A DNA stretch of 60,872 nt, counting the filler, from Sphacelaria rigidula (lineage: Eukaryota), in assembly GCA_964200075.2 (NCBI GenBank). It is 10 parts of 10 records of this genome, joined end to end, with 100 filler letters (N's around TTAATTAATTAA, not from the genome) between each part and the next. Parts side by side here need not be neighbours in the genome. Positions count along the whole stretch, not along the records: positions 54,877 to 60,872 come from CAXNAA020022927.1; 9 more parts are not named here. The stretch is one strand, 5' to 3'. Below are positions 5,480 to 60,872 of the stretch, one piece after another. A program made the translations under genes and the position numbers. Below the pieces are notes generated by a model. It had not been told where the DNA came from. It saw only the letters and a program-made list of their open reading frames with translations, and searched no databases. Position 1 is the stretch's first letter, and each line of letters begins with the position of its first letter.

Positions 5480-5626
5480 AGATGGCGGGGGAGGGGGGGG
5501 CGTAGATGGCGGGGGAGGGGGGTGGTACACATGATCTTGCACTCCGTAGTCGTACACCATTGACCTCGAGGGGTGGGGGAGGGGCGTTCTCATTTGTAGC
5601 TTACAGGGGGGCGGAGGGGGGGGGGT
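5480..5626 (-). mobile_element. Stack of very short 3' fragments of the C-tailed LINE (family A) and its partner (family B)
   Basis: Minus strand reads ...ACAAATGAGAACG-CCCC (family A end), then GTCAATGGT...CAAGATCATG...CCCC (family B end), then a direct duplication of a C-rich 19-21-mer around ACG. Confidence 0.6.
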
Positions 5627-5906
5627 TCACATTCATTTCCGCCGCGCCCGTGTCTCCCATCGTATTATCAATATTGAAGTCATGGAACAAAGCCACACAA
5701 GATCATCGCGATGTATATTCTGTTCGACCGATGGGCGGGATTTTGCTTCAGAAAACACGTCGTAAGCTTTACTTTGTCCACAACGGGCACTCACGAAAGC
5801 GTCTCGTGCTCCACTTTGTAACGAAATTGCGTTGTTGCGCAAGCCCCCTGAAATCGTCGAGGGACTCGGGGGTAATATTTCGTGTTCCGTATTTTTTCGG
5901 GCGTTT

Positions 5907-5998
5907 GAGTCATCCTACGATAGGGGGGGGGGGGGGATTTGGTTGCACGAAAAAAAGGGATCATAGTGTGTCAGACATGCTTCCACAATTTCTTTTGG
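5907..5998. mobile_element. Terminus of a high-copy DNA transposon (GAGTCATCCTACGATAGGGGG...), cut by the contig end
   Basis: Same sequence at 12197-12266, 30490-30552, 42684-42700 and 48598-48680, always at a contig edge. Confidence 0.75.
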
Positions 5999-6098
5999 NN
6001 NNNNNNNNNNNNNNNNNNNNNNNNNNNNNNNNNNNNNNNNNNTTAATTAATTAANNNNNNNNNNNNNNNNNNNNNNNNNNNNNNNNNNNNNNNNNNNN
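5999..6098. other. Artificial contig linker
   Basis: N44-TTAATTAATTAA-N44, stop codons in all six frames. Confidence 0.99.
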
Positions 6099-12196: not shown

Positions 12197-12266
12197 ATGT
12201 CTGACACACTTATGAGCCTCTTTTTGCGTGCAACCAAATACCCCCCCCCCTATCGTAGGATGACTC
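12197..12266. mobile_element. GAGTCATCC-family transposon terminus
   Basis: ...CCCCCTATCGTAGGATGACTC, the reverse complement of 5907-5976. Confidence 0.75.
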
Positions 12267-12957
12267 TTTCGTTCGTGTTAGTTCTACGTATTTTCTACAT
12301 CCCAAATAATCCATGATTCTTGAGCCAAAAGCAAAGCCGTGCTACACATTTCGGTATATGTGAAAAAAAAGTAGTGACAAAAATGGGGGCCTCGGAATTT
12401 GCTACTGGAAACTTCCGCCACGTGTACATTGTTTTCATCATGTCTGCCCTTCTTCAGACCCATCAGGAACTAAAACCGCCGTTCATATTGGACAGAATTA
12501 TCAAGGACGCCGTCATAACGCCACAGCCCGACCGCCCTCCTCATCAATCGACGTCCGAATATGTCCGTCATTGTTCATCGCTGATTTTTTACCCGCACGC
12601 ATGCGAGATTTCCCGAGATATCCCGAGAATATCCGAGAGGGAGAGAGAAAAAGAGAGAGCTCTTGTATCGTCGTGTGAGCGAGCTGCCGGGATAGGTTTA
12701 CGAGAATCCCTCACCGAAAATCCACGGTTACAGGAGAACACCGTCGCTTGTCAAACTCCAGGGCCAACGTCGACCGCAGATCAAACCCCAACCCGAGACA
12801 GACCGAGAACCCTGCGATAAGGAAGGTGCCGAGGGAAGGCTACGTCGGGTGTGCATTGGCAGAGCTCGAATCAGCGCGCGAAGAGATATGATTCAAGGAT
12901 ACAGCACGTGCTGCGCACGTGTACAAGAATATGACATATTGTCAGCCCCCCTTTCAT

Positions 12958-13315
12958 CCGGTCGCCCAGATGGTCAAGTTGGTAACCTCGGAACCGCCTT
13001 CTGACAGTTGGGTCGTGGGTTCGCATTTCGGTGCAGTCACACGATTTGGTTTCTTGTCTTCACGTTGTACCCAGCAACAGTGGAGTGCGACGATGTCGTG
13101 AGTACACAAACTCGACTTTACGGTCGAGGAGGGAAGGGGGCTGCTGAACCTCTCTCGCGAAAAGAATAAGGCAAGCACCTCAGAAGGAAAGTGGAGTACT
13201 AAAACAAAATGAAACAATCTCCGGTGTTGGCCTTCCTCCTGTGTAACCCCCGCTACTGCGCCCACAATTACCGAAAGGTGTAGACTGGTGTCCCGAATAA
13301 ATGGGATAGCAACAC
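12958..13315 (+). mobile_element. tRNA-derived SINE, family 1
   Basis: Degenerate Pol III A box TGGTCAAGTTGG and B box GGTTCGCATTT; body aligns with four other copies. Confidence 0.85.
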
Positions 13316-17259: not shown

Positions 17260-17367
17260 TATTATTTATATTTTTATTATTTGTTTTTAGTTGTCGCGCT
17301 TTGAAACCCTCCCCTTTTTCGGGATGAGTCCGTGGTGTCAGGGAATCAACCCATCTCTCCCCCGGTA
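17260..17367 (-). mobile_element. SINE family 2 / LINE-type 3' fragment with A-rich tail
   Basis: Reverse complement matches 49879-49961; the same fragment is at 30277-30370. Confidence 0.65.
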
Positions 17368-17689: not shown

Positions 17690-18180
17690 GGGGGGTAGGG
17701 CGCGGGAGGGGGGGAGTAATCATGATCTTGCATGCCATACTCATCAGGCCATTGGCCTCGCATCCCCACGAAGCCGGGACGGAGCGCGCTGAGTTTTCGC
17801 CGGATCAGGCTCGCACTCAATCACCGAGCGCAAAGCGCCGTGGTGTGTTCGCGAGTAGCATGACGGGTGAGCTGCACCCTGCTAAGATTGTTCGGCCCGA
17901 AGCCTACTGATTTCTCTTGCATTTGGATGACAGCTTCCAATGAGTTGCTCTATTTTCTGGCATCGCCACTTCCTGAGACAGCCACAGCTTATATACTGCC
18001 TCATGAGTGCCTCACCGTTTAACACCCTGCGTAGTATGATCGTCCTCTTTGTGCGGAGTTGAGCTTCTCCCATCACGCACAACACGATCTAGTTCGACTA
18101 CCATCATGGTTACCGCAAAAAAAAACGCAAGCGCGAAAAACAAAACGGTAACCTGGTTGCCTAGCTGACGCAGTGAGTGG
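17690..18180 (-). mobile_element. Non-autonomous retroposon family B (~460 bp) with C-rich tail
   Basis: Pieces recur at 5530-5570, 18295-18370, 54537-54776 and 55630-55732. It ends ...CAAGATCATGATT then CTCCCCCCCTCCCC. Confidence 0.7.
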
Positions 18181-18194
18181 GTAGGGGAGTTGGG

Positions 18195-18294
18195 NNNNNN
18201 NNNNNNNNNNNNNNNNNNNNNNNNNNNNNNNNNNNNNNTTAATTAATTAANNNNNNNNNNNNNNNNNNNNNNNNNNNNNNNNNNNNNNNNNNNN
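18195..18294. other. Artificial contig linker
   Basis: N44-TTAATTAATTAA-N44. Confidence 0.99.
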
Positions 18295-18381
18295 AGTTGC
18301 TTTATTCTGTGGTATCGTCACTTCCAGAGACAGCCATAGCTTTTACACTGCCTCATGGGTGTCTAACTGACGGGGGGGGGG
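18295..18381 (-). mobile_element. 5'-truncated family B fragment, preceded by C10 on its own strand
   Basis: Aligns to about 17943-18015; G10 at 18372-18381. Confidence 0.65.
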
Positions 18382-21905: not shown

Positions 21906-22890
21906 GTGGGCACCACTCTTCCCTTACGAAAACATAGTGAAACACATTGTGAACAACCCATGTCGTCAGGCCTTACCTTGCCGCTTTCTGATTTATTTCC
22001 TTAGGGCGTGTCTTCAGCCATTCATATTAAGGTGACGACCCATCAGATCGTTTTACTTTTATACCCACCACACGTCTGCTGAGCCCCTCCTCCTAGGCGG
22101 GTTTTCATCGAAAGTAATCGTCACTTTTCAAACGATCACTTTTGGAAATTGAAAATGGATTGCCCCAAGAACGACCAGTTTTCAGTCTCATTGAGAAGCA
22201 GTTTTGTCCAAAAAATAGGGTTGTATAGTACACCAACTATTAACCAAGGGTTCGATTATTGATCAAAAGTTGATCGAATCAACTTGCTATTGATTGTTGG
22301 TTATTGATGGGACAGGGTTGATTCGTTGATTATTCAACTTGTTATTGATTGATAATGGATCAATTTGTGTCAATTTGTTCCTTGTTTATCGAAATAAAAG
22401 GCGCGTGTGCATCGTGTAACGCCACCTTGTTGCCTGCTGCGCGGGGAAGCAAACGGTGAATTCATAGTAGTCAAGACGACGGCACACGGCTACAGCAAAA
22501 ACCACACGACATTATTTTCACACACCAGTGGTGGCACACAAGAGACCGAATGCCACACACCACAGCAATCAGGCAGTACGCAAGGGCTACACGCAACTCG
22601 ACAACATGAGTGGTGCGGTCAGTCGTGGTACAGGTGCTGCACCCGCCTCCGGGACTGCCGCATCGGTGTGTTCTCTCTCACTTGACAACGGTCAAGCTGG
22701 AAGTACAGCCGATTCTGCCCCGGTGGTGGCACTGGTCATTTTGGTTTAAGGGGTAGCATGTCTTCAAACCCTGCTTGCAGGGCACCGGACGGAAAGGAAA
22801 TATAACATTCTGGCATGCATATCGTTTATGACGTGGGTGTTCCATCTCTGACGACGGTTGATGGGTAGTGGGTAGGACGGAACCGCATCG

Positions 22891-23260
22891 ATGGCTCAGT
22901 TGGTAACCTCGAAACTTCCTGACGGTTGGGTCGCGGGTTCTCAATTATCGGAGCGATCTGGGATTTTTTCTCACACCATGCCCAACAGTGACGAGGCACT
23001 ATGTCGTGGGTACACAATATTCGACTCAACGGTCGACAAGGGGAAGCGGCTGCTGAACCCCTCTTGCGAAAAAAATAAAGGCAAGCACCGCAGAAGGAAG
23101 GTGGAGTACTAAAACAACAAAAACAAATGAAGAAAAAACTCTCGTGCTGATCTTCCTCCTGTGTGACTCCGGCTGGTGCGCCAACACATACCGAAAGGTC
23201 TAGACCAGCGTCCAGAATAGATGGGATGACGACACAACACACACACACACACACTCACAC
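22891..23260 (+). mobile_element. tRNA-derived SINE, family 1
   Basis: A box TGGCTCAGTTGG, conserved body, (CA)n tail. Confidence 0.85.
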
Positions 23261-25801: not shown

Positions 25802-26602
25802 TTAACCCTTCGAACGCCAGGACGCCAGCGGGTTCATCTGGGCGATGTAGACTGTGTCAATTGAAAATGATGCCGATTCAATAGATGTAGCTACCCTGGC
25901 GGTGAAAGGGTTTGCTCTCCTTTCACCCCAACCATGGATCATTGGGGGTCATTTACCCCTTGGCCCGCGCTGCACATAGTCCATCTGGATAACGCACACT
26001 TTTTTCAAGTGGAATTGATGCCAATTCAGCAGGTAACATACCCTCGCCGTCAAAGGGTTAACCCTTAGACCGCGAGATTGGTCTTTCTGGATCATGCATA
26101 CTGTTTTCACTTGAAACTGATGCCGATTCAACAGAAGAATAACCTCGCGGTCGAAGGGTTAACCCTTACACAGCGAGAGTGGGCCATGTGTTGAATCGGC
26201 ATCAATTTCACTTGAAGAAAGAATGCATGATCCAGAAGGACTACCCTCCTCGCGGTCCAAGGGTCAAGGTATCTCAAACTCAAATTTCCCGGTTTATTCA
26301 ACGGTAAGTCATTGTCGAATATATCGGGATCGCGGAGTTTTAGATACCTCGAGTTTCAAAGGGTCAAGGTATCTCAAACTGGAGTTTCCCGGTTTATTCA
26401 ACGGTAATTCACTGTCAAATACATCGGGATTCCGGAGTTTAAGATACCTCGAGTGTGAGATACCTCATTTTTTCAAGTGCGGGAAATGATTCCGATTTAA
26501 CCCTTAGACCGCGAGGTTAGTCTTCTGTTGAATCGGCATCAATTTCAAGTAAAAAAAATTATGCATGATCTAGAAAGACTAATCTCGCGGTCTAAGGGTT
26601 AA
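25802..26602. mobile_element. Cluster of five ~100-bp piggyBac-like MITEs plus small GAG-terminal MITEs
   Basis: TTAA|CCCTT...AAGGG|TTAA units at about 25806-25910, about 25957-26057, 26062-26158, 26163-26263 and 26501-26598; adjacent units share single TTAAs. Confidence 0.8.
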
Positions 26603-27430
26603 CAAATGACCTTCCCTGATGGTCGAAGAGTAACCCTTGGACGGCCAACAATTACTACTCGAGTAGAAATAATGAAATACTGCCGATATGCCAACGTGAC
26701 ACACCATGGCGTCCGTCAGCCTCGCGTCGGAACATGCCGGACTTCGATGCCTGCCTAGGCAATATTGGCAATCTGAGGGGGAGTTGGAATCAAAAGAGGT
26801 ATCTCAAACACGAAACTCTCGGTTTATTTCACAGTAAGCTACAGTCAAATATACCAGGAACCTCGAGTCTGAGATACATCCAAGAATAAACGATTCGATT
26901 CAACGGACCGCCCACCCACTAAAATTAACCGGCGTTCAACGCCGGTTAATTCACCTCCCCCAAGTGGTCAAATGATTATCCAACAGCCGCAGTTGGTCTT
27001 TCAATGATACTGTAGAGACAGTAGAGTAGAGTATCTTCATTTTTTTTAAAGTAGGAGTACTCGTACTCGAAGTCGTATATATCGTGTACACCACAAGCAA
27101 GTCACAATCGTTTGAACGTCCACATCGGCGTTCTGCATGGCTGTGCGTTGACTCAATATGACAACGTGCATTTCTTCACCGCGTATGGTCTAGGCTGCTT
27201 TAACCCTTGGCCGTGTCTTATTGAGAGAAACAAAAACAAGCGCGAAGTGTAACAAGCGTCCAAAATCAGCATCTTGATTGGTTGCCGCAACCATAGACCC
27301 GCCCGGCGGTCAATCAACTCGCTGCTCCGGACGCTTATTCCTCTTCGTGCTTGTTTTTTTGGTCTCCATAAGGGCGTGTCTCAGCATACTGTACCCTTTT
27401 TTTTTCGATCGGAAGAGTGCAGTGGAAAAG

Positions 27431-28435: not shown

Positions 28436-28470
28436 GGAACTTGAGCATCTTTTTTCATGTTAGGAAACAA

Positions 28471-28836
28471 CCGGTCGCCCGGGTGGCTCAGTCGGTAACC
28501 TTTACACCTTCTGACAGTTGAGTTGTGGGTTCGAATCTAGGTGCTTTCACATGATCTGGGTTTTTTTTTCTCACACCATGCCCAGCAGTGAAGAGCGACG
28601 ATGTCGTGAGTACACAAAATTCGCCCTCGCGGTCGACGAGGGAAAGAGACTGCTCGACCCCTCTCGCGATAAAACAAATAAAGGCAAGCACAGCAGAAGG
28701 AAGGTGGAGAACTAACATAAAAAATAAAACTCCTATACTGGCCCTCCTCCTGTGTGACCCCTGCTGGTACGCCCACATATACGGAAAGGTGTAGGCTGGC
28801 GTCCAGAATTGATGGGACGACAACACACACACACAC
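28471..28836 (+). mobile_element. tRNA-derived SINE, family 1
   Basis: A box TGGCTCAGTCGG, B box GGTTCGAATCT, (CA)n tail. Confidence 0.9.
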
Positions 28837-29558: not shown

Positions 29559-29921
29559 CCGGTCGGCCCGGTGGCTCAGTTGGTAACCTCGAAGCCTTCC
29601 GACGGTTGGGTCGTGGGTTCAAATCTCGGAGCGATCTGAGATTTTTTCGCACACAATGCTCAACATTGGAGAGCGACCATGTCGTGGATACAGAAAATTC
29701 GACTATACGGTCGACGAGGGAAGGGGACTGCTGAACCCCTCTTGCAATAAAACAAATAAAGGCGAGCACCGCAGAAGGAAGGTGGGGTTCTAAAACAAAT
29801 AAAAAAGAAAAGACTCATGTGTTGGCCTTCCTCCTGTGTGGCCCCGGCTGGTGCGCCCACATACACCGAACGGTGTAGACCGGCGTCCAGGATAGATGGA
29901 ACGACAACAAACAACCCACAC
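29559..29921 (+). mobile_element. tRNA-derived SINE, family 1
   Basis: A box TGGCTCAGTTGG, B box GGTTCAAATCT, CA-rich tail. Confidence 0.9.
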
Positions 29922-30276
29922 ATGATGAAGTTAGTTTTGAACACGATGCAGCACGTGCTCACTACATCTCGAAGTGATATTATAGCAGAGGTATGCCAAG
30001 GTTTGCCGTTTCATTGCACGACATCCGAAAACAAAATCAATAACGAACGGTAACCCGCAACCACAAAATACAGAAAAAGCAATGACGTGATGTTCAACTA
30101 CATGCGTGCGTGTTTGTCGGCCCGGACGTGAATAACTTGGCGCTCGCATTCGGGATCCCACATGCTGCCAGCCTTGGCTTCCTTGCTTCCATCTTCCGCT
30201 CATCACGGACAGTCGACACTTCCTACGATAGCCCCCCGCAAAAAGGTGCCTGGTTTGGGGAGACAAAATCTTCACG

Positions 30277-30370
30277 TTTTTCTTCTTTTTTCTCTCCTCA
30301 CACTTTGAACCCCCCCCCTTCCTCGGGATGAGTCCGTGGTCTCAAGGGATCAACCCATCTCTCCCCCGTA
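30277..30370 (-). mobile_element. SINE family 2 / LINE-type 3' fragment
   Basis: Matches 17300-17367 and the reverse complement of 49879-49961. Confidence 0.65.
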
Positions 30371-30489: not shown

Positions 30490-30552
30490 TGACACACTTA
30501 TGAGCCCCTTTTTTCGTGCAACCAAACCCCTCCCCCTATCGTAGGATGACTC
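30490..30552. mobile_element. GAGTCATCC-family transposon terminus
   Basis: Near-identical to 12201-12266. Confidence 0.75.
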
Positions 30553-31049
30553 AAGCATGGATTTCTACGGAACTGCCAAGTTTGAGGATGATCTGAGGTT
30601 TTCTGGAGCGGGTCAGACGGAAATCGTCACGAGGCTCGCTGAGGTTATCTCCATATTACGAGGAGTGATTAGACGGCCCCAAACTCCACATCACGGAAAC
30701 ATAACGGTTTCGGTATCCTTCGACCCCGTCGGAACCGTTTTCAATCCCGTTTCTCCCGCGAGAATTTGGAGGTGATGACGGTCACTACGACTTTAAGCAT
30801 GTGGAAATTCGGTCGGAATTGGGCTTGGAGTTCGTATTTTCAATTTCGGAACAGTTTGAAAGGCGCTGATTGGTCGAGCCACACTTTTGTCCATAGCTCC
30901 ACCTCTTTAGCCGTATACAAAATTTCGGCTGTTTCACCCTCTTCATCTGTTCATTGCGGTCAGTATGATACCATGTATGCGGCTATTGGGTGCATACGGC
31001 AGAAGGTTGCTGAGTAGAGAATTTGGTTTTTGTTTCCGTGAATCAGCCT

Positions 31050-31468
31050 GTAAAGATGTACCAGTAGTCGGAAGGAGAAGAAGTTGGTGCACGGAACTGC
31101 ACCTGTGGCAAAGCAATAGGAAGCAGGCGACATGTACCAGCAGAACGAGAATTGTACGAGGAGGCACGGGGCCGGATGGAGGGGGCAATGCGGGACGTAC
31201 ACGAACGTGGCATGAACATGTTTGATGCATTAGACGGTATGAAGAAACGGCGATGATGGTGGGAGATCATGGACGGCCGGAGACGAGGAAATCGGAGGGG
31301 AACAAGATACGTGAACGGGTTTTCTGTAATGCCTGGAATAAACCGCACGAGCGCCGATATGTTGGAGGAGTCTCCACCAGGAGTAGTAACGGCGTTCCGT
31401 CTCGAAAGGCACGCGTGCGCAGCAGTCAAACGAGTAAGTTGAGCGACACATGAGCCCCCCCCCCCCCC
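31050..31468 (+). mobile_element. 5'-truncated LINE family A copy ending in a poly-C run
   Basis: Translates to RYVGGVSTRSSNGVPSRKARVRSSQTSK, homologous to the LINE C-terminus at 55766-56160; the stop codon is followed by about 14 C. Confidence 0.8.
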
Positions 31469-33075: not shown

Positions 33076-34136
33076 CTGAGTGCAGCGGCCCAAACGGACA
33101 CACGTCAACTCAATTTTGGGAGTGGACATATGCACGGCGGGCCAGTAGCATCTGTGCGCAGCTGCAATATAAAGCCTTTTGTCGTTGTCATAACTTCACG
33201 GGTGGGCACTACGCGACCATCAAGCATGCTCATGCCCGGAACCGGACGACCACCCCCCTCCGTGGAACGACGAGAAAATATCGGCGCGGTACCGGAAACA
33301 CGCCCCCGAAACAAAGGAAAGAAAAAAACGTACCCAGCCTGCCCGTTTGTAGTGTCTCGACATCTGAATCAACACCTTACGTAGCAACGCGTCACCCTTT
33401 CACTCGACTTCCGCCGGATCGTTACAATCAGGTCAGCAAGGTGTGTTGAAGGACATCATGCTACAGGGGAGCACAAAGTTCACGGCGACGGTGTACGAAT
33501 TCCTATCTCATTCCGCAGCACGTCACCTGGGACACGCTCAGCACGCTTCGGAGACGATGTCCAAGGCAAGTGGAGGAAAGAGACAACGCAGTCGCGGGTT
33601 CGACCAACGTCTGTTACCAAACCCCCGAGACACCGAATTCTGAAACATCCCGACACGCCACTAATTGCGAAATCGTGCATACCTGCACCGGAATACGACA
33701 TTATAGTATGTTCTGACTACATTTTAAGACACGCAGCCACTTTCGCAAACAGCCCCAATGCGCTGTAAACGCCAGGTGCATGGTGCGAAGATGCCAGCTC
33801 CCCCCCCCCCCCCCCCCCCCCCCCACCAACAAAACACCCCCCCCCCACCACACCAACCACACCCCCCCCCACCCACNNNNNNNNNNCCCCTTTCGCAACC
33901 CGCCCCAATGCGCTGAAAAGCCCGGGGGCATGGTGCGACGGGCCCAGCCCCCCCCCCCCCCGCCCCTTCAAATGAGTACGCCCCCCCCCCCGCCCCTTCA
34001 TAAATCGGGGACCATCACGATCATAACATACAACAATGCCCTCACTCAATCGCGAGCACGCGATAAATCGAATGGACCGAAATCACGAGCGACTCACCGC
34101 CTGGCCCGGCCCATCTCACCCCACGATATACCGATA

Positions 34137-39895: not shown

Positions 39896-40642
39896 CAGTA
39901 GTGTCGTGTTGCAGTGTCGTACTGGTGGCCTCTACCCTTTGCGGTCCACGTAACACGCGTACGACAGCAATGCACAATCCATGCGTTGGGAGCTTTTCAC
40001 GGGAATTCATTCTTGGAATAATTGTCATAACTGAATAAGATAGTCAACCCCAGGAATCCTTCGGCAAGTGGTGATGTGCCTAGAATACCCGAGACATTTT
40101 TTGCAAATCGTAGTCATATCGGCGTTGGGATTCTAGGGACAGTAGTGCATACGAAGCAACAATCAACCATCGTGTATTGTGTTGACTGACTCGAGCAAAC
40201 CCTACCTGTGCTCTCTGTACAGGGCAAAGAACTCCTACTCATGCCTCGAATGTTGCGGGGTCTAGGGTACCCGAGTAGCACACATGCACCTGCAGCAGTT
40301 CCGTTTTTTTTTCTTTCTAAGCAGCTCGCTAGGTATTCCTTGCCTGCCCCTCAACCGGTCGGCGGGTGTGAGTGAGCTAAGGGTTCAGGTTCTGGAGATA
40401 TCGGAGTACATCCCAACAGTGCACACACGAGGGTATCGGATAGTGCTGTCCCATCCCAGAACAGTACAGAGCAGTTGCATGTCATGTTTCATGTTTCGCA
40501 CGTGAATACAAGTGCTGTTGATGTGGCTTGCCTGTCTTACGTCAAGTGCCGGTCGTCTTTTCTTTCGTCTCCCCCCAGTAGGAGCGAAGAAGGATTGTAA
40601 ACATGTAGCATGTGTAATGCCGTTTTTCAAGGTGCACTACTG

Positions 40643-40988
40643 TCTTGTCGTCCCATGTATTCTGGACGCCAGTGTACACCTTTCGATATACGTGAGCTTG
40701 TGGGCGCACCAGCCGGGGTCACACGAGAGGAAGGCCAACGCAGGACTTTCTCTTAGTTCTCCACCTTCCTCCTGCAGTCCTCAACCCTCTCCTTTTATCG
40801 CGAGAGGATATCAGCAAACCCTTCGCCTCGTCGACCATTGGGTCGAATTTTGTGTACCCGCGACATAGTCGCTCTCCACTCTTGACAGTTTTCGAGAAAA
40901 AATCCCAGATCGCTCCGAGATTCAAACGCACGACCCAACCGCCGTTATAAGCTTTCGAGGTTCACCAACTGAGCCGTGGGGCGACTGG
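40643..40988 (-). mobile_element. tRNA-derived SINE, family 1
   Basis: Reverse complement of the family 1 head and body. Confidence 0.85.
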
Positions 40989-41601
40989 TATGACACCGTC
41001 TGTTGAATTTGGATGCTCCAGCTTAATTACTTACTGTTGTAATGACGACATACAGTAAAACTAAAGCATACACAACAGCGGTTCCAGACATGGAGACATG
41101 GATATTCTCTGCAACGCGCCGAGTCTAGTGATACTCGAAAGGCAAATCGGGGTGTTTTTGGCTCGCGACACAAAACATGTGTTGCCACACCTGGACAAAC
41201 TATTGCATCGTCAAGAGGTGTGCTGCGTACAGTATGGACTATCGCGTGTATTGCAGCAGATGGACATTTAATCCCATACTGTCGAGCAGTGCATTTACGA
41301 CACCAGGGTATACAGGATCACGGCGCTTTACGCTGGAGTCACGCTCTCATCTTGTTGTGTGTTGGTAATCTGACGGTTGCGGTGAACAGAAGCATAAATT
41401 GGTGTCGCTTGCTCCTTGTCTCATGAGAGTATCTTGCCCTAGCTTCGTAGCGCGGCGCAGCAACAGTTGTCCTGTTCTGATCCCAGTGTGAGAAGCCAGC
41501 GCAGGGGGGTTCTGTATGCTCCATGTACGCTGTACGTCACACAACGTTGCGGGTGCTGCGTCGTCCGTACTGTACCAAATGCTCCAGGCCTCCAGTCCAA
41601 A

Positions 41602-42683: not shown

Positions 42684-42970
42684 CTATCGTAGGATGACTC
42701 CAATCTCGAGACATCGGAGCCAAGTGAATCTGAAAGGTCTGCTAGACTCCTCTCTGTGGGGTGATGCAAAGAGTCCGAGACGTATGTTGCCGATTTTCCC
42801 TGTCTGGGGGTCAAAACGTGGGTCGAACGTCGCAAGAGTAAACAACCCGTGGACCAAAAATCTGTTTGCCATACCATCCGGCCTGAACCCAAACATCAGG
42901 CGCTCTATGTTGTTTTTTGTTCGTGACACTTTTGGGCTGGTTTTGGGCGGGGGCTATCGTAGAAAGTATC
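42684..42970. mobile_element. GAGTCATCC terminus abutting the right part of a GACACTTT-family MITE
   Basis: CTATCGTAGGATGACTC at 42684-42700; GGGGGCTATCGTAGAAAGTATC at about 42950-42970. Confidence 0.7.
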
Positions 42971-43191
42971 CTCTCTACTGTATCCGTTGCTTGACCCAAC
43001 CATCGATGATACGACAACCGCCCGTTGGTGACGGAAGAGTCTAACTTGACCCTGACACCAGCCCCGAGATCGCAACGGTACGGTGTTCCACAACCCACGG
43101 GATCACAAAAGACCGACGCGCCGTGAGTTTTAAGTCCAGTTATTGTATCGATGCGGAGAGACTCGGGAACCTTTCCCCGGGAGAAAGAGGC

Positions 43192-43847
43192 GTCGTTGTT
43201 GTGGCGTCTGTGAACGGCAAATGAGCGGGAAAAAGGCCGAATGTGGGCGCCATGGTTGGAGTTGGCGCGTCGACTCCCTTGCGCGCGATGTGCTGCATCA
43301 GATAAAGTGTAGAGAACGATGGCCTAGGACAGGTACGTCCTCGGCCGATCGGTGGCCCAGATGAGGTACGATTGAAGAAGAATTCCTAAATCAGGTATAC
43401 CTGGCCGAAATTTTGGCCTAGAAAAGGTAAGCGGTTTTTGGAGGCGAGACATCCGTTCTTGCGGGGCCATATCTCGCGAGTAACATATTTTCTCCGGTTT
43501 TCTTCTCGAGGCCCAGTTGCCAGGGATGTGCGTGAAACATTCGGAGCGAAAACAGTCAAAATGGCGTGTTTTGCTGTTTTCGCGTTTCCGTTTCTGGCCA
43601 TTTTTCGTACCTTTCTTATGCGAAAACCGAAAATGTATACCTTTTCTAGGCCATTGCCCGAGAATGAATAAGGTACAATGAAAAAAGCAAGAGTAATGGT
43701 CTAGAAAAGGTATATCTCCTCGTATTATGCCCAAGAAAGGTACGAAGAATGACCAGAAGTGCGAAGTTAGCCAAACACACAATCTAGCCCGATTTCGCTC
43801 CAAATGTTTCACGCACAGCAATCGGGAGGCTCCTTGGCACCTGTTGC

Positions 43848-43890
<43 letters not shown>

Positions 43891-44877
43891 GCTGCTGCTG
43901 CTGCTGCTACTGTTGTTGTTGTCATTGCTGTCTTCACATGAAAAACCGTCCCGATATCTGCGCGGTACATTCGCACTGGGCATCTGATGCGGATGCCTTC
44001 CGTGGTCACAGGCTGGCAAAAAAACAAAAACCAAGATAGACCCAGATCAAAACTCACAAAACGCGATACAAGCAAATCAGGGATAAATACTAAAGAAGAA
44101 AGAGAGTACCTACGGCTAACCTCAGAAGATCCGGTGCCGCAGGTGGCCATTCGGACTTCAGAGGGTGGCACCCGGCTTTCCAACTCGACGCGCGACGCCA
44201 AGTAGAAATGAACACAGGACCCGACTACCGGCGAGACTCAAGGCCCCAAATACCGCCATCCAAAGAACTAAGAATCGCAAGGTTCCATCTTTCGGCCTCT
44301 CGAGGGACAGCCATGCGTTCAAGCATACCAGGTGTATCAAGACAAGCACTGCATGACATAACGACACCCCTCATCGAGGGGGGGGGTTCACCCCCCACCC
44401 CCCCCTTCTCTGGACCGTCGTCATTGCTGCACTTTTTGCGCTTTGTTGGTCTCCTATCTAATCGCACGCACTCGGCTGGCCTTCTCTTCATTTGTGTGCC
44501 ATGAAGTCATGAACCTCTCCGCTCCCTGCAGCACTTCCGCTTGCAACGGTGGCACCTGGATCTCGAAACAAAACAGAAAAAAACATGCTACTCGCAATGT
44601 ATGGCCATGAGCAGAAGGACGCCTCACCTCCAGGAACCACTTCCCCTTCCTAGGCCAAATTAAGGCCAGTTATACCTGATCTAGGAGTTCTTTTTCAATC
44701 GTACCTCATCTGGGCCACCAGTCGTCTCAGAAAGCTATCCTGGGCCATCGCTTCCGACACTGTACCCGATGCGGCACACTGCGCGCAAGGGAACCCACGC
44801 GCCAACTCTAACCTTGGCGCCCACGCATTCGGCTCTTTTCTCGCCCATTTGCCGTTCACGAACGCCACAACGACCAC
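43192..44877. mobile_element. Non-coding element bounded by ~235-bp inverted repeats, containing an inner ~330-bp foldback
   Basis: 43192-43427 is an imperfect reverse complement of 44644-44877; 43514-43843 is nearly palindromic. Confidence 0.75.
43842..43930. repeat. (GTT)n/(GCT)n compound microsatellite
   Basis: Seen directly. Confidence 0.95.
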
Positions 44878-48000: not shown

Positions 48001-48597
48001 ACCACTGAAATACCCTTGTCCAGCGTGTGCCTGGCCACTAGTCCAATAATACTTGGACACCAAACTCTGTCGGTGGAACGGTCATGTCTGTTCGTAACGA
48101 AAGAGAACCGTCCGTCCGTGCAAGCTTCGATGCTTAACCTTTTTCGGCAGACACTTTTAATGGCGTATATGTCGTTTCCACGACTGCTTTCATCACCGAT
48201 GACCCACATTTGCGGACCCCCTTGCTTTCGCCTTCGGCTCGCAAGGATGCTTTTCGTCGCCATGCTAACACATGCATCAAGTGCAATGGTACTGGCCACT
48301 GTATGCGAGATTGACCTGAACCTTGCATCAACATGTTTTCGCTCATAAGCCCTGAACTTCAGAGCAACAGGCAGGCGTGGCGCCGATGGCAAAAACGTAT
48401 GCGCGAGTATAATCCACCTTCTTGCCACCCTCGCCAGCCTTACCACAATCATAGCGACTCTCGCTCAAATCGCGACCGCAGCCACACCACTAACACAGTC
48501 TCAGGTACTCGCCATAGAGATAGTGCTTTCCGCCCTTCTTAGTCTTCGCATGGTCATCACCAGCAAACAGGGCCGACTCACAACAACACCAGCCCCA

Positions 48598-48680
48598 GAG
48601 TCATCCTACAATAGGGGGAGGGTATTTGGTTGCCCGAAAAACGAGGCTCATCAGTGTGTCAGACATCCTTCCACACTTGC
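48598..48680. mobile_element. GAGTCATCC-family transposon terminus
   Basis: Matches 5907-5990. Confidence 0.75.
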
Positions 48681-49662: not shown

Positions 49663-49961
49663 GCGCTCTGGTGGTGTCATGGTCCGGCTGTCGACATTAG
49701 GGTGGAGAATGGGGGTTCGATTCCCGATGCGTTGGGTTTTTTCTTCGTGATATCTGATTTCCACCCTGGAAAGCGTGAGAACGTGAGTAAACAAAGTTGT
49801 CGACCGAGTTTTGTTTGACGTGAGTTGACGCGGTGCGGGAGTGCTGAATCGAGCCGCAAGACCAAAATGCTAGGCATGTACCGGGGGAGATATGGGATGA
49901 TCACCTGAGACCACGGACTCGTCTCGAGGAAGGGGACGGTTTCGAAGTGCGACAAAAGAAA
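49663..49961 (+). mobile_element. tRNA-derived SINE, family 2
   Basis: A box TGGTGTCATGG (49672-49682), B box GGTTCGATTCC (49714-49724); the 3' 80 bp are shared with fragments at 17.3 and 30.3 kb. Confidence 0.6.
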
Positions 49962-50087
49962 TGTGTTGCGACGGCATAATCTCCGAAGTCTACACATATA
50001 TTGGCTAAAGTAAAATACGATCGCATTAGCCTACCCAATATGTGAATCTTGTTGAGTACGATCTAATTACTCAACCTTTTTTGGATG

Positions 50088-50115
50088 CTTATTACTATTA
50101 TTATTATTATTATTA

Positions 50116-50155
<40 letters not shown>

Positions 50156-50180
50156 CATTATTATCATTGTTATTATTATT

Positions 50181-50212
<32 letters not shown>

Positions 50213-50250
50213 TATTATTATTATTGTTATTATGATTATTATCATCATCA

Positions 50251-50296
<46 letters not shown>

Positions 50297-50297
50297 G
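50088..50297. repeat. (TAT)n/(CAT)n compound microsatellite
   Basis: About 210 bp; the poly-Y/I/H ORFs are spurious. Confidence 0.97.
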
Positions 50298-51236
50298 ATA
50301 TCTGCCACATTAGCTCGGTCTCTCGAACCCGTGGTCACATAGTGCAAGGAGCATACCACCCATACCCACAACCCAAACAGCCGGCAGAAGAAGGCAAGAA
50401 ACAAAACATCTACATGAAAAAAAGCTTAGAGTACCATTATTCAAAATACCCAAACGTGGGGAATACCCCACCCAACACACCGTTGAATTGCTGTCAAAGG
50501 CACCACAATAATAACCACAACGAAAAGCACCGACGAAATACATACATGGGACGTTTCCGGGGAGAAAAAAACAAAGAAGCGAGGATCACATGATGTACTG
50601 AATGCTATCGTACACACCGGCAACCCATCAGCTTAAACCCAATCCCGACTTGGTAAACCGCAGAATCGCCATCGTTCAATTCGAAAAATAACTACAGGAA
50701 CCAGATGACCAACCCCGGCGGTCGAGGAGTCAACAACCCCAACACTACTCACCGAATGGGATATGGACATGATAGTATCGTGACCGATCAGAAAATTGTG
50801 TCCTTCCCAGATTTTGGGGGAAACAAAACGTTAAAAACCCTGAAAGGCCCTCTTGCTTCTTCTAACTTTATACGTAACCTCTTCACTATCTCTGTCTGTC
50901 CCTGCCTCTTTTCAATCGACTCTTCTATGGTTTTCGTCCAGTAGACTTTGGAGTAGCCAAGCTTTCCACGAGGAAAACTAAGCTGAAGTAAGCATGCATG
51001 TATGCATGTATCGCGGCTCAGAATACAAAGCGAAATATATAGGCGACGCACGAGACACACCATGATGGCTCTACACCAGTAGCTACAAAATTGTCGACTA
51101 CACCGCCTTGCTCTAGGCGTGTTCTACTGACGGTGGTCCACGTTCAAAACATGTTTTCATTCATGTAGACGAAGTCGACCTAGAAGCGGTGATTAAGTAT
51201 CATCGGACACATACGCACACATGCACACACCCCAAG

Positions 51237-51348
51237 CCCTCCTCCACACACACATGGATGCTTTGTGTCGAAAGGGATGCGTGGTCAATGGTCAAACGAC
51301 TAAGGCAAGCAACAAGTGATTCCCCCTCCCCTCCCCCCCCACACACAC
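51237..51348 (+). mobile_element. Short LINE family A 3' fragment between C-rich near-duplications
   Basis: TCGAAAGGGATGCGTGGTCAATGGTCAAACGACTAAGGCAAGCAACAAGTGA; flanks CCCTCCTCCACACACAC and CCTCCCCCCCACACACAC. Confidence 0.75.
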
Positions 51349-51653: not shown

Positions 51654-51752
51654 GGATGGAGGGAGGGGGGGGGGGCAGCGTACCCAAATTTGTTGCTGGC
51701 CTTAGTTGTTTGACCATTGACCAAGATCCCTTTCGAGACGGAGAAGGAGGGA
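51654..51752 (-). mobile_element. Short LINE family A 3' fragment with C tail
   Basis: Minus strand CCGTCTCGAAAGGGATC...CAGCAACAAATTTGGGTACGCTG-C11; flanks TCCCTCCTTC and TCCCTCCATC. Confidence 0.75.
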
Positions 51753-54514: not shown

Positions 54515-54776
54515 CGCCCCTCCCCTTCCCCGTTAGCCTGGTCCGGCGAGAACCCGGCGTGCTCCGTCCCGGCTTTAGGGGCGGACCCCCGATGGGGTTG
54601 GCGTCGGTTGGCGATGACGCTACGAAACACGCCATTCACTGCGTAAGCTAGGCAACCAGGTTACCGATTGTTTTGCGCACTAGCATTTTTTTGCGGTAAC
54701 CATGATAGTAGTCGAGCTAGATGATGTGCGGCGTGGGAGAACCTCAACTCCGCACAATGGGGATGATCGTACCACG
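54515..54776 (+). mobile_element. Family B fragments (a 3' piece after a C-tract, then a 5' end running into the contig break)
   Basis: 54537-54585 matches the reverse complement of about 17765-17810; 54632-54776 matches the reverse complement of 18030-18180. Confidence 0.7.
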
Positions 54777-55629: not shown

Positions 55630-55732
55630 AGGGGAGGATGTTTTCATGATCTTGCATGCCATAGTCGTAAGACCATTGAGCGTCCATCGCTACTAAGCCG
55701 GGGCGGAGCACGTCGAGTCTTCGCCGAATCAC
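55630..55732 (-). mobile_element. Family B 3' fragment directly downstream of the LINE tail
   Basis: Matches 17720-17810. Confidence 0.7.
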
Positions 55733-55737
55733 ATTTC

Positions 55738-58700
55738 GGGGGAGGGGGGGAGGGGGGAGGCGTACTCATTTGTTGCTTGCCTTAGTCGTTTGACCATTCA
55801 CCGCGCACCCCTTTCGAGACGGAGCACCGTTCCTATTCCTGATAGAGATGCCTCCAATATTTCGGCGCTCATCACGTTTCTTCCACACATTACATAAAAA
55901 ACGTTTTACACATCTTATCCCCTTTCTGATTCGCCGTCTGTGGCCACCATCTACTGTATTTCCTAGTATAGCCATCTTTTTCTCCCTTGTGTCTGAAAGA
56001 TCTCATGCCACCTCCGTTTACTTTCCGCATTTCCCCCTCCAGCGCGTCCCGTTCCTCCTTGTATAGATCACATTCTGCCACTGCATGGGTTCTACTCTCT
56101 ATTGCTTTGCCACAGAGGGAATTCCGTGCATTTAGGTCCTCCCCCACTTGACTACTGATATATTGTATCTCTTTCTTCCTTCTGGCAGGTTCAGTCAATT
56201 TTTTCCAGGAGTCCATTCGGCCATGAAGATATGTATTTATCCCTATCCCATCTCTCCACCCACCGTATACCTCCAGGTGTTCTTCCTCGTCTAATTTGCG
56301 TCTGAGTGTTTCTTTTCCCGTATTTCTATCATATCTCTTACGTTTGTCTTGTTCCCCCCGCATTCACCCATTGACATTATATATCGTCTTGGTTTTCTCC
56401 TATCTCCTTACATACATTCTCGACTTCTCCATCCCACCTTATTCCCGTCTATCCTGTCGTCATTTTCTTCCATACGGCTTTATCAACTATGCCTGGCAAT
56501 CTCTTCCCCTGCCTGTTCTTTACGCTGTATTACTCTTTCGATTTCCTCATGTCTCTGTGTTCTAAGCGGGCACAATCCCAATTGTGCTCTCAATGCTGCA
56601 TTGCTCGTCGTTTTTTAGCATCCGAGTATCTTCTTACCTGCTTCCATCTGTATTGTTTCCAACTTCTCCTGCATATTCCAGCTTTGGTACAACCGCGTCC
56701 ATCAGGATACATATATTTATTCTAGTATCTAGGTGTGAGTCTCTGATAATCACATCGATCCTGCATATCTGCACCTCACCCTTATCTATTACTTCAAATA
56801 TGTGTGCACCCCAATAGAGCTTTCTTATATCTCCATGCCGAGGTATGTATACTGGTCTACGAGCCGCAGTTGCTCTTCTCCCCACTTCCATTTGAACTCT
56901 ATCGGATTTCCTAATCTTTGTTACATGCAAGTACTGCGCATTTGTTTACGTTCGCTGTCACTCTCGATTTTCTATTGTATTCTAGGGCCTTCTCTATTTT
57001 CTTCTGCAATCCTTCTGGTGTCTCTTATATCCCCACGAAGTCATCCGCGAACATCAACCCTGATACCGTATGTCCCCCGACTTTGACTCCTTGTTTTGCT
57101 GCTTCAGTTGCTATTATCAGGTCATTAATGAATACCTTGAATAAAGTCGGTGATGACGTATATCCATGTGCAACTCCCTGTGAAACATCAACATATTTCG
57201 ATATTTCCCAGTCTAGCATCATGGCACTTTTCGCACAGTCTGCCCTCTTTTTCACCATTCTCCACATTTTCCCTCTGATCCCAGTTTCCCACCACTTTTT
57301 CCCGTAGCCCATTTCTCCATACCATAATAGGCCTTCTGTGCGTCTAGAAAGAAAGAGTACGTTGTCAGCCCGGCGTCTTTCCTACCTTGAATAATATTAC
57401 GTAATGTGTACACATTGTCTACGCAACTACGTTTTGGTCTAAAACCTGCGTAACCCTGGCTGATTTTTTCTTCCTTCTCGAGCCGTTCCCACAGAATTTT
57501 GCAGAATGTTTTCTGTACGGTGCTCAGGAGCATTTATCCCTCTATAATTTCCTGTGTCAGCTTTGTCTCCTTTCTTGAAGAGGTTTACTACTACTCCTTT
57601 TTTCCAACTCTTGGGTGTGTAGTCGTTTACCCATATCCAATTGTACAGCATAACCATCATGGTAATTATCCCGTCTCTCCCGTACTTGAGAGATCCATTC
57701 ACCATATTTCGTCTGCCCCTGCTGCCTTTCTGTTTTTGAGTCCAGCTACACACTCCTTTGATTCATCTCTGGTGAACTCTCTCTGCAGTTCTTTGGAACC
57801 ACTATCCTCCTGCTTTGATGCCTCTACATTTGCCTCTGCCCATGTGTTGATTTCTCTCTCGAATTCCGTGTCGAACCTCTTGTTAGTTTTTGGTGTTCCT
57901 AGATTACGGTAGTGCTCTACTAGTACTTCTCTTTCCCCCCTCGAAATAGCAACCATTTCGCCGCTCTGTGCCAGTAGTGTAGCAACCCCCTTGTCTGTCT
58001 CTCCTGCCTGATTGCCCAGCCTCCCTTATATCCCTACCCACATTTGTTTCATCCCACCATCTAAATCTTCAATTGTTTCCTCAAGTACATCTTCCTCTAT
58101 TCCCTTTTTTTTTCTCCTCTACCATCTTGTTCATCTCTTTTCTAGCTTTAGCGTGTTCCTCCAATCCTACTGTAGTTTAACTCGACATTTATCTCGCGTT
58201 GGCCTCTCGCCTTACTCTTATAGCCTCTTTCACTTCCTCATCCCACCATTTTACTATTCTGTTGCCTATGATGAGTTTCTTCCCCATGACTTCACTCGCT
58301 GTGTTCTTGACCAAGTGCTCCCATCCTTCTATAATTTTCTCTTCTGCCCAATCCCTTTCCATTTCGGTGTCAACTGTACCTGTGCTTTCCAACAGCTCGG
58401 AAAAATTCGCTCCAGTTTTGGTCATATCTTCTTGGAACTCTTGCTGATTTGTTTGTATTTATAGTTTACCGATTCTCCATCTGTACAACTTCCTACCCCG
58501 CCTTTCTCGTTTAGCTTTCATCTGTTGGCTTTCTGTCCACATTAAGCAATGATCTATAGTTTTCACGTCCTCTGCGCATACATGTACTTCCATTTTCTCA
58601 CTCGTTCAAACTCCACCGCTCTATAGTCAAGAACGGAGAGTACTGTCTCGTCTACGCATTTTCTAGTCCATGTCCATTGCGCCTCTGTCTTTGTGCTCTG

Positions 58701-60570
58701 TCGTTCAGCGTCTTTATCTCGTTATTCTCAAGGAACTGCAGCATATCTACTCGTACCCCATTCGTGTTTCTCTTATCTTCCCCCTATTGCCCACTGATAC
58801 CAGCCGGTTGACCTGCTTTTCCAACCCTTGCATTAAAATCTTCGACAAACATTACTTCTCGCCTTTTATACTTCTGTACAACTGTTGCTACCTCTCCGCC
58901 TCCTCTGTATATCGTTTACCGCTCTCTTCGATTCTGGGGGCATGTAGATGTTGCCTACGAAGAATTCCTTCGTTCCCCGCTCTCCTGGTACCCTTATCTA
59001 TATGCTCTCGTCGAAATTTGTGTCTTTACTCACTTCTGTCATGTCACACAGGTATTCCTTGACTTAAGAATCCTACTCCCCCCGCTCCCCTGTTCTTGGG
59101 GTTCTGTCCTTCCCGCTTTTTCCATATCTATACGTACTCTTCAACTTTACATCCTATTTCTACCCCCTCTTCATCCCATGACTCTTGGATTCCCACTATA
59201 TTTAGGTCGCGTTTACTTACTTGTTTGGCTATCTCTATGATTTGGCGCTCGTCCGTGGCGAATCCACACACGTTCCACGATCCTATTCTCAACTTCCTCT
59301 TCAAAACGTTATCCACTCTCCTTTTGTCTATTGTTTTCTCACCGTCGTTTTTGAAGTATTTCCCCTTGCTTGATTTTTCTTTCCGTTTCCGGTTTGGTTT
59401 TCGCCTGTTTGCTTCGGGCCGCTATTTTCCCCCCCCTTTCCCTTCCGGGCACTCTCTTGTTTCTGCTTCTCCTTCTCTGCGTTTACCCGCGGACTACGTC
59501 TTGGGTTTGCTGTTCCTTTGGCTATGCATACTCTCCATCGTACCCTTCCAACCCATGCCGACACCTTACTTGTCTTTATTATCCTTTCCCACTCCTTGCT
59601 CGCGCTCTGTTTTAACGTGACTCGGAAGTGTTCTCCCTCCCCTTCTATTTTTCCTATTCCCACACAGTATAGCCCTACTTCATCGCATTTGCTCTTCAAC
59701 TCAATTCTCGTCGTATCGCTGCGGATTCCGAATACTAGCACTACTAGTACTGTACCGGCCCACTCTTTACTGCTCTATCCACCCTTCCTCGCCGTCTCTC
59801 TCTCTCTCGATTCCTTTGAAGAGTGTCTCCAGCTTCTTCGTTTCAAGTTTTGTCGTGGGATGTAGTCAAGGCACTGGGATATCCCAACCCTAGTGCTTGT
59901 TCGACGGCTGGTGTCTTTCATTTCTCTTTTTGGCTCACCGACACTGAAACATGTCTCCAAAACGGGCTCGTAGCCTGAAGCCAAGTTCAACATCTTTGAC
60001 ACAAGTATCCCACGTTTATCCCAGGCGATCTGCGTGGTAAACTATCCAGGAGTCCCACGATCGTATTTTCTAGCTTCTTGCCCCACAGCTGTACGGATTA
60101 CTTTCCTCCAGGGAGGCCATTTTCACCGTGTAATGTTCAAGGATGGCTTGCATAACACAAGGTCTTACTTACACATTGGGATGTCCCGTACATCATCACT
60201 TCCTCCCACTCCGTGTACCGTTCACCGTGGGTCGTTACTCCACTAATGCTCCCGAGTAGACCTTCGCTGCCGAAAGCTTGACCAACGATTCCCTCATCCT
60301 TTGCACCAGCTTCTATCCGTCAAGATCTGAAGAAGTCCACGTGCCGCTTGGTGCTCCTCCTCGTTGGACATGTGGTCGGTCATTGGCAAGGTGTTTGTTT
60401 CATGGGTGCAGTAGGCATTGACGTTTATGTCATGCATTATCAATCCCTTCTCTTCGCTTGACGCTTGTGCACCTAGTGTCGGGAATTTCAGGAAAATGTC
60501 TGACCAGATTTCCACCGCCCAATGGAAACCGGTAAAATTTTCCGGGTATCTCAGCACGAGACACAACCTC
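55738..60570 (-). mobile_element. Decayed near-full-length non-LTR retrotransposon (LINE family A; RTE/RTEX-like by motif style)
   Basis: ORF1-like relics at 59.3-60.6 kb; APE endonuclease, RT and C-terminal Cys/His motif in ORF2; C-rich tail at 55738-55760. The 5' end is not defined. Confidence 0.92.
55766..59316 (-). pseudogene. LINE ORF2 (APE endonuclease + reverse transcriptase), frameshifted
   Basis: LRIGSWNVCG...VGIQESW (APE); WKKGVVVNLFKKGDKADTGNYRGI, AGFRPKRSCVD, FFLDAQKAY, GVAHGYTSSPTLFKVFINDL and LMFADD (RT); CGKAIESRTHAVAEC. Confidence 0.93.
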
Positions 60571-60872
60571 CATGTGAATTTAACATGTCGAGGTGATCCT
60601 ATCGTATCTGCACTCGTTCTACCTTCGGGTCTTTCAATTGGCGTGTGATGCGGTCAACCTTCACGATCTTACTTACATGTCTGGGTTTTGGTCTTATTTT
60701 ATACCTTACCTTTGTAATGATGTGGAGGGAAGAGTCTCGGTTGTTTTCTGTTTTGATATGGGGAAATATAACTGTTTTTTCTCAATACTTCATGTCTATG
60801 CCTCTAAAAAGTAACCTGTAGTCCATTCGAGCAGTACACTCGCTGCTGCTTTTCTCCGAACAGGTGTGATAG

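What the first reader, a model, noticed from the sequence alone, without database searches (positions are those of the whole stretch)
55738..60570. A LINE with a C-rich tail that appears to insert at poly-C/G tracts
Seen: ORF2 ends at TGA (55766-55768), followed by only GTACG and then CCTCCCCCCTCCCCCCCTCCCCC, with no poly-A. Every other 3' end of this family in the window (about 5590, 31450, 33975, 51320, 51680) also runs straight into a C-tract, and four of them have a similar C-rich sequence on the 5' side. Established: in target-primed reverse transcription the TSD starts with the sequence that matches the RNA tail (A-tract for L1). Inference: this APE-LINE nicks G-runs and primes on a C-rich RNA end, a mirror image of L1. 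That would also help explain the many G/C homopolymers in these contigs. I do not recall this tail/target type being described, but I cannot search the literature.
Basis: partly seen in the sequence, partly recalled or inferred. Interest (0 to 1): 0.7.

Follow-up and report, generated by a model that had tools for sequence, protein, structure and literature searches.

The report
C-tailed algal LINE targeting C-runs
This is a decayed copy of a very common jumping gene that ends in a run of C's and lands in runs of C's already present in the genome; the trait is real but is already listed for what look like its relatives in the brown alga Ectocarpus.

Summary
Observation confirmed; novelty mostly not. 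The stretch is a decayed single-ORF APE-RT LINE (minus strand, 55761 to about 60800, cut off near the contig end). The genome holds 689 exact copies of its last 42 nt. Of 82 sampled ends, 75 run into C's and 1 into A's. TSDs were called at 33 of 69 copies, against 17 of 1189 mismatched controls. On the 5' side, 29 of those 33 begin in a run of 3 or more C's. Empty paralogous sites already carry the C-run (19 of 28). A ~505-bp non-coding partner shares the last ~66 nt and the same C habit. The supplement of the Ectocarpus TE paper (PMC12477816) already lists RTEX-1/2_Ec32 as single EN-RT ORF, (C)n 3' end, C-rich TSD, with a similar partner. The closest named RT homologues are Ectocarpus proteins. 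Added here: counts, empty-site evidence, signs of nicking inside G-runs, and a 66-nt mini-unit. Whether the endonuclease or the priming step selects the G-run is open. The family explains only about a fifth to a quarter of long C/G runs.

The parts
55761..60800 (-). Decayed single-ORF APE-RT LINE (family A); 5' array and head missing at the contig end
55738..55760 (-). 23-nt C-tract after the 3' end (tail plus 3' target copy; the two cannot be separated here)
55761..55826 (-). Conserved ~66-nt 3' unit, coding the last residues and the stop; shared with family B; also the commonest size of short copies
55766..59792 (-). The single ORF, broken by many stops and frameshifts: N-terminal domain, APE, RT, C-terminal CCHC knuckle
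   Evidence: tblastn of P0002 residues 2-1360 to 59789-55769; Pfam on P0002
58537..59283 (-). APE endonuclease domain (SWNV, QESW, DFN, DH motifs)
56830..57570 (-). Reverse transcriptase domain (NYRGI at 57552, FADD at 57054-57031); edges approximate
56070..56117 (-). C-x1-2-C-x8-H-x4-C knuckle, partly decayed
59793..60800 (-). 5' UTR; in other copies it continues into a 63-bp tandem array and a head preceded by a C-tract
55644..55731 (-). 5'-truncated family B copy inserted just after the LINE's C-tract, with a near-repeat C-run+GAAAT on both sides
31088..31454 (+). 5'-truncated family A copy followed by C14
33971..33980 (+). 10-nt family A 3' end between two copies of a 20-nt C-initiated TSD
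51259..51320 (+). ~62-nt family A short copy with C-rich flanks
51680..51743 (-). ~64-nt family A short copy with C-rich flanks
5570..5602 (-). Degenerate short family A end between C-tracts; a family B end (5525-5568) follows
17716..18180 (-). Near-complete family B copy (profile positions 41-504), followed by a C-tract

Best explanation
It is a dead copy of a brown-algal RTE-X-type LINE that moves by target-primed reverse transcription. One protein (APE, RT, CCHC knuckle) binds the conserved ~66-nt 3' RNA unit, which a ~505-bp non-coding partner also carries (binding inferred from the shared sequence). The bottom strand is nicked in a G-run, often inside it rather than at its edge (inferred). 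The freed G-ended strand pairs with C's that follow the 3' unit in the RNA and primes cDNA synthesis (inferred). A second nick about 8-20 nt away gives a TSD that starts in the C-run (the pattern is shown). The RNA's C's are most likely copied from the donor's own C-tract. Each insertion duplicates and often lengthens a C-run, which makes a new target, so copies nest in older tails (pattern shown). How much of the site choice comes from the endonuclease and how much from primer pairing is not resolved.
For: APE and RT domains. One ORF in an intact relative covers the copy. C-rich 3' flank at 75 of 82 and 97 of 102 ends. TSDs at 33 of 69 against 17 of 1189 controls; median exact match 13 nt. 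A C4 run lies in the last 25 nt of the 5' flank at 54 of 69, against 237 of 2974 background windows, and G4 at 1 of 69. The 5'-side C-run is 3 or more at 29 of 33 TSDs. Empty paralogues carry CCCC at 19 of 28. The 3' C-side is shorter than the 5' run at 12 of 33 and longer at 19 of 33, and 6 of 69 copies are nested in an older tail. Extra tail bases are 125 C and 8 T, with no A. The same end and C-tail occur in two metagenome contigs. The family forms a clade with Ectocarpus proteins (SH-aLRT 100, quick tree). The Ectocarpus table lists single EN-RT ORF, (C)n 3' end, C-rich TSD and a partner with a shared 60-bp 3' end.
Against: 36 of 69 usable copies gave no TSD under my rule (a pure-C TSD cannot pass it; others are decayed). 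That all 33 TSDs start with C is partly forced by the C-rich 3' side. Homopolymer slippage and assembly error blur the length comparisons. The empty-site test rests on one host repeat (search query held six C's) and a second whose query spanned the tract. The three head-to-end loci show no convincing unique TSD, L190 a doubtful one. The 66-nt unit folds no better than shuffles (z -1.4 to 0.2). The Ec32 consensus and Repbase RTEX sequences could not be compared directly.
Confidence: 0.85

Rival explanations
1. Priming selects the site. The endonuclease nicks with little sequence preference, and only nicks that leave a G-ended strand able to pair with the RNA's C-tract become insertions. This is a sub-case of the best explanation, with no G-run-specific nuclease.
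For: Nick positions vary within the run, and as few as 2-3 C's remain on the 3' side. In RTE elements the first TSD base tracks the tail repeat, and pairing is one of two proposed causes (PMC6007223, passages). By eye, the endonuclease hairpin region is about as long as in relatives from clades with non-C tails.
Against: 5'-side runs are often longer than pairing of 2-3 nt needs (5 or more C at 22 of 33), which fits a nuclease or binding preference as well.
Confidence: 0.4
2. The C's are all tail. The element adds C's at unbiased sites, and the 5' C-runs are chance or come from tandem or nested copies.
For: 19 of 33 copies have extra C's on the 3' side, and 6 of 69 are nested in older tails.
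Against: 5'-side C-runs at 54 of 69 against 8% background. Empty paralogues already carry the run. Nesting covers only 6 of 69.
Confidence: 0.04
3. The C/G tracts are sequencing or assembly artefacts (poly-G calls, breaks at repeats).
For: Many exact 3'-end hits lie at contig ends, and some tracts sit next to N gaps.
Against: The tract is strand-specific (C on the sense strand at both ends, G4 at 1 of 69) and is followed by unique duplicated sequence. The same tail occurs in two other assemblies and in the Ectocarpus table.
Confidence: 0.02

Closest known systems
RTEX-1_Ec32 / RTEX-2_Ec32 and RTEX-N1/N2_Ec32 of Ectocarpus (Dinatale et al. 2025, PMC12477816, Supplementary Material 3 rows 2-7; passages and table rows seen)
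   Same: Single EN-RT ORF; (C)n 3' end; C-rich TSD; length of the same order (5.5-5.9 kb there; head-to-end 5.3, 5.9 and 6.6 kb in three loci here, continuity not checked); abundant non-coding partner sharing about 60 bp at the 3' end, with weak likeness to the LINE's 5' head and tandem copies.
   Different: Here every copy scored is decayed (longest open frame 445 aa among the 150 RT hits). The partner is about 505 bp, not 604-607. A 63-bp array lies in the 5' UTR and a 66-nt short class dominates; neither is mentioned in the rows seen. RT identity to Ectocarpus sp. CCAP 1310/34 proteins is about 50-65% in most rows (61% over 88% of the query for P0006), so it is a different family.
RTE-clade LINEs and their SINEs (Nishiyama and Ohshima 2018, PMC6007223; passages seen)
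   Same: Simple-repeat 3' tail; first TSD base matches the repeated tail base; partner shares the 3' end.
   Different: The tails in the table rows seen are (GTT)n, (CAA)n, (CTGAA)n and similar, with TSDs starting mostly with T or A; none is C. Overlap there is 1-2 bases, here a run.
Mammalian L1 (recalled, except the weak RT match)
   Same: TPRT with a homopolymer tail pairing to a complementary nicked run; TSD begins with the tail base.
   Different: No ORF1, no poly-A, no TT/AAAA target. A specific 3' unit is shared with the partner. RT similarity is distant (E about 1e-20, like the R2 match).

Membership tests
Brown-algal RTE-X (RTEX-1/2_Ec32 type) | Single ORF with APE endonuclease and RT | tested here: met
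   read from intact relative P0002, which covers the whole decayed copy
Brown-algal RTE-X (RTEX-1/2_Ec32 type) | (C)n 3' end | tested here: met
   75 of 82 and 97 of 102 ends
Brown-algal RTE-X (RTEX-1/2_Ec32 type) | C-rich TSD | tested here: met
   33 of 69 against 17 of 1189 controls
Brown-algal RTE-X (RTEX-1/2_Ec32 type) | Non-autonomous partner sharing about 60 bp of 3' end, with weak 5' likeness | tested here: met
   Family B, 199 exact 44-mers; length about 505 bp against 604-607
Brown-algal RTE-X (RTEX-1/2_Ec32 type) | Full length 5.5-5.9 kb | tested here: inconclusive
   5.3, 5.9 and 6.6 kb in three loci, continuity unchecked; array length varies
Brown-algal RTE-X (RTEX-1/2_Ec32 type) | Sequence similarity to the Ec32 consensus | not testable with these tools
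   The FASTA supplements cannot be read. Proxy: clade with Ectocarpus sp. CCAP 1310/34 proteins
RTEX clade (Repbase) | RT domain falls inside the RTEX clade | not testable with these tools
   No clade-labelled references were available; the tree has none. The label rests on the Ectocarpus table's best-blastp notes
L1 clade | Separate ORF1 and ORF2 | tested here: not met
   1 kb upstream is UTR, then an array
L1 clade | Poly-A tail and A-initiated TSD | tested here: not met
   1 of 82 and 0 of 102 ends A-rich; 0 of 33 TSDs start with A
Ectocarpus RTE-1/2_Ec32 | (CAA)n 3' end | tested here: not met

The most novel reading that the evidence does not exclude
The brown-algal RTE-X protein has an endonuclease that is itself specific for G-runs and primes inside a C-tract of a read-through RNA. 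Its 66-nt recognition unit also moves as an independent mini-element, one of the smallest retroposons. The hints are that 49 of 73 exact-anchor and 10 of 28 other copies measure 58-72 nt, that they start where the LINE and partner begin to match, and that their core is less diverged than in long copies (2.5% against 7.5%; 50 and 14 copies).
Probability: 0.25. Interest if true: 0.6.

Novelty: new member of a known kind. Interest (0 to 1): 0.32.

Why it matters
The tail and target type is already in a curated table, so this is not a discovery of kind. I found no mechanistic treatment of it in the passages of that paper's main text that I searched, or in the paper searches run. A C/G counterpart of the L1 A/T system is a natural test of whether the nuclease or primer pairing sets LINE target choice. 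Intact relatives exist in public data (P0002, P0003), so nicking and tail-swap assays are feasible. The family also feeds some of the C/G runs in this genome, and many of its ends sit at contig breaks.

Tried and rejected
Rfam on 7 loci: no hit near a gathering score, so no known ribozyme or tRNA head. Folding of 4 end sequences: no z-score below -1.4. LINE and partner differ mainly in predicted loops, but no compensatory change was seen, and the alignment misplaces the 5' part, so no pair count was run. ESM Atlas on the N-terminal 86 aa: best score 0.80, no lead. PDB search: only distant L1 and R2 RTs, which says nothing on clade. The careful tree did not finish; only the quick tree is used. 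Sequencing runs: no RNA holder listed, contigs only, so no reads were laid. Local empty-site search among held loci: 7 copies hit, 5 of them self-matches from nesting and 2 real. The search spanned the C-tract, so it is not a fair count. No intact ORF among the 150 RT hits scored of 1763 candidates. Earlier scan notes: nothing. Paper searches: among the papers I opened, a C-tailed LINE appears only in PMC12477816; the other listed hits were seen as listings only. Repbase, Dfam and subscription journals were not searchable.

Full report
Setting. The window is ten contigs of about 6 kb joined by N spacers. The element lies on contig C22927 of a 244-Mb, 27,214-contig assembly. The closest named RT homologues are Ectocarpus sp. 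CCAP 1310/34 proteins (for example 61% identity over 88% of the query), so the host is probably a brown alga (inference).

Anatomy. On the minus strand the copy has decayed APE and RT domains (Pfam E 1e-4 and 3e-4 on broken frames). An intact 1360-aa relative, P0002, aligns from residue 2 to 1360 across 59789-55769. It carries Exo_endo_phos and RVT_1 and a C-terminal CCHC knuckle. So there is one ORF, not ORF1 plus ORF2. The stop TGA lies at 55768-55766, followed by GTACG and the 23-nt C-tract. Upstream, the copy matches other genomic copies to about 60800. In those copies the UTR continues into a 63-bp tandem array of up to about 16 units and then a head. By eye, 13 of 14 heads are preceded by a C-rich tract. 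This copy lacks both, so it has no TSD of its own. No intact ORF was seen among 150 RT hits scored of 1763 candidates.

The 3' end. The last 42 nt occur exactly 689 times, and the reversed control 0 times. I sampled 85 of the first 100 listed places; 14 at contig edges and 1 already held were left out. Of 82 with enough flank, 75 have at least 5 C in the first 8 nt and 1 has at least 5 A. Among 102 non-exact ends in the held loci, 97 are C-rich and none A-rich. Two marine metagenome contigs, 88% and 75% identical to P0002, end the same way, so this is not an artefact of one assembly.

The target. 69 of the 85 copies had clean flanks. An exact repeat of 8 nt or more with at least 3 non-C bases was found at 33 of 69, against 17 of 1189 mismatched flank pairs; the median length is 13 nt. 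All 33 start with C, which the C-rich 3' side partly forces. The independent test is the 5' side, which cannot come from the RNA tail. There the C-run is 3 or more at 29 of 33 and 5 or more at 22 of 33. Over all 69 copies, CCCC lies in the last 25 nt of the 5' flank at 54, against 237 of 2974 background windows, and GGGG at 1. Paralogous empty sites give a direct check. One host repeat carries insertions at L051, L056 and L245. Of 28 paralogues aligned (29 given), 19 have CCCC at that spot, one of them the filled L245; most others have a run with one change. The genome query included six C's, a small bias. A second host repeat shows the same, but its query spanned the tract. The 36 copies without a called TSD include pure-C duplications that my rule cannot score and decayed sites.

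Mechanism. The TSD pattern is what TPRT gives when the bottom strand is nicked in a G-run and the G-ended strand primes on C's in the RNA (established TPRT logic; the steps are inferred). At 12 of 33 copies the 3' side has fewer C's than the 5' run, down to 2-3, which suggests nicks inside the run. At 19 of 33 it has more, which suggests C's brought by the RNA. Slippage can blur both. Extra bases are 125 C and 8 T, more like a copied genomic tract than an untemplated tail, so priming may be internal on a read-through RNA. Six of 69 copies sit in the tail of an older copy. The data cannot separate nuclease preference from selection by primer pairing. The same two options are given for RTE elements (PMC6007223, passages).

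Partner and short class. A non-coding family B (199 exact 44-mers; 479-505 bp in five copies) shares the LINE's end from the GTGCTCC motif onward. Its head resembles the LINE's head, and it shows the same C flanks and TSDs by eye. One B fragment sits just past the C-tract of the window copy (55644-55731). Short A copies pile up at 58-72 nt: 49 of 73 exact-anchor and 10 of 28 other copies. They start where the shared unit starts. Their core differs less from the common form than that of long copies (2.5% in 50 against 7.5% in 14; boundary calling favours the short ones). A closed stem is predicted for one of four ends folded but is not significant, and Rfam gives nothing. A truncation hotspot and a separate mini-element both remain possible.

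Homopolymers. Only 8 of 32 C/G runs of 8 or more in the window, and 8 of 41 in 163 kb of loci picked on other repeats, lie within 45 nt of A or B. The family contributes but does not explain most runs.

Relatives. In a quick ML tree of 60 RT rows (the careful search was unfinished; no clade-labelled references), three own-genome copies, the two C-tailed metagenome contigs, P0001-P0004 and two Ectocarpus proteins form one clade (SH-aLRT 100). Of 32 metagenome loci (of 80) whose ends I read, only those two have a C-tract after the stop. About 19 of the other 30 show simple-repeat tails by eye, such as ATTT, TTCCA, CT, TAA and TTGAA; several are cut off. The C tail thus looks like the one-base extreme of an RTE-type repeat tail, confined so far to the brown-algal clade.

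What is known. Supplementary Material 3 of PMC12477816 (rows seen) lists RTEX-1_Ec32 as 'single EN-RT ORF; (C)n 3'' with TSD 'C-rich', and RTEX-2_Ec32 with '(C)n termini/TSD'. It lists RTEX-N1 as a 604-607-bp partner with a 60-bp 3' end 83% like them, weak 5' homology and tandem copies. The main-text passages found by term search name these families but do not mention the C tail; Fig. 1C could not be seen. The FASTA supplements were unreadable, so membership rests on matching features and the clade with Ectocarpus proteins. PMC4421812 (passages) reports a recently active RTEX-1 in kelp, with no tail described in the passages seen. PMC5753468 (passages) gave only the clade list. Ten searches led to no other description among the papers opened; Repbase, Dfam and subscription journals were not covered.

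Verdict. The feature is real and the targeting is well supported. It is a new family of an already catalogued kind; what this adds is the quantified target, the empty-site evidence and the 66-nt unit. Interest 0.32.

Noticed in passing
window 5999-6098 and every ~6.1 kb: N44-12 nt-N44 spacers join ten separate contigs, so neighbours across them are not real.
   Followed up: yes
window 33948-34000: A 10-nt element end flanked by a 20-nt C-initiated TSD, the shortest insertion seen.
   Followed up: partly
L154, L157, L165, L173 and others, upstream of the 5' UTR: 63-bp tandem array of up to about 16 units, then a pyrimidine tract and a head preceded by C's; possibly promoter monomers.
   Followed up: partly
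window 17716-18180, 18294-18367, 54534-54776, 55644-55731, 5525-5568: Copies of the ~505-bp non-coding partner (family B), some in tandem or nested.
   Followed up: partly
window 5905-5990, 12197-12267, 30490-30554, 48597-48678: Another repeat with an internal C-run; similar sequence forms the TSD or flank of insertions at L033, L094, L004 and L017, so it looks like a recurrent target.
   Followed up: no
window 17291-17367, 30289-30368, 49879-49961: High-copy short repeat (2609 candidates) starting with a T-run and a C-tract; hit by insertions at L098 and L141.
   Followed up: partly
window 12955-13315, 22889-23246, 28468-28836, 29559-29922, 40641-40989: An unclassified ~360-bp repeat family, 71-81% alike.
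   Followed up: no
window 43192-43522 and 44550-44877; ORFs 42811-44046: Inverted pair of ~330 bp (78%) next to two stop-to-stop frames of 170 and 240 aa.
   Followed up: no
window 25837-26880, 50085-50299, 1659-1763: Tandem repeats (about 102-bp period; 3-bp units).
   Followed up: no
P0002 residues 10-95 (window about 59500-59790): N-terminal domain conserved across the wider clade, with no Pfam hit and no Atlas hit at 0.9 or more.
   Followed up: partly
L292 near the stop; C-termini of P0009-P0044: Distant relatives keep a C-terminal CVVNG-like motif, which is coded by the conserved 3' unit. L292, the one of these with DNA in hand, has an ATTT tail, so the unit may be older than the C tail.
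   Followed up: no
G000, lists: Many exact 3' ends lie within about 100 nt of contig ends, so the family coincides with many assembly breaks.
   Followed up: no
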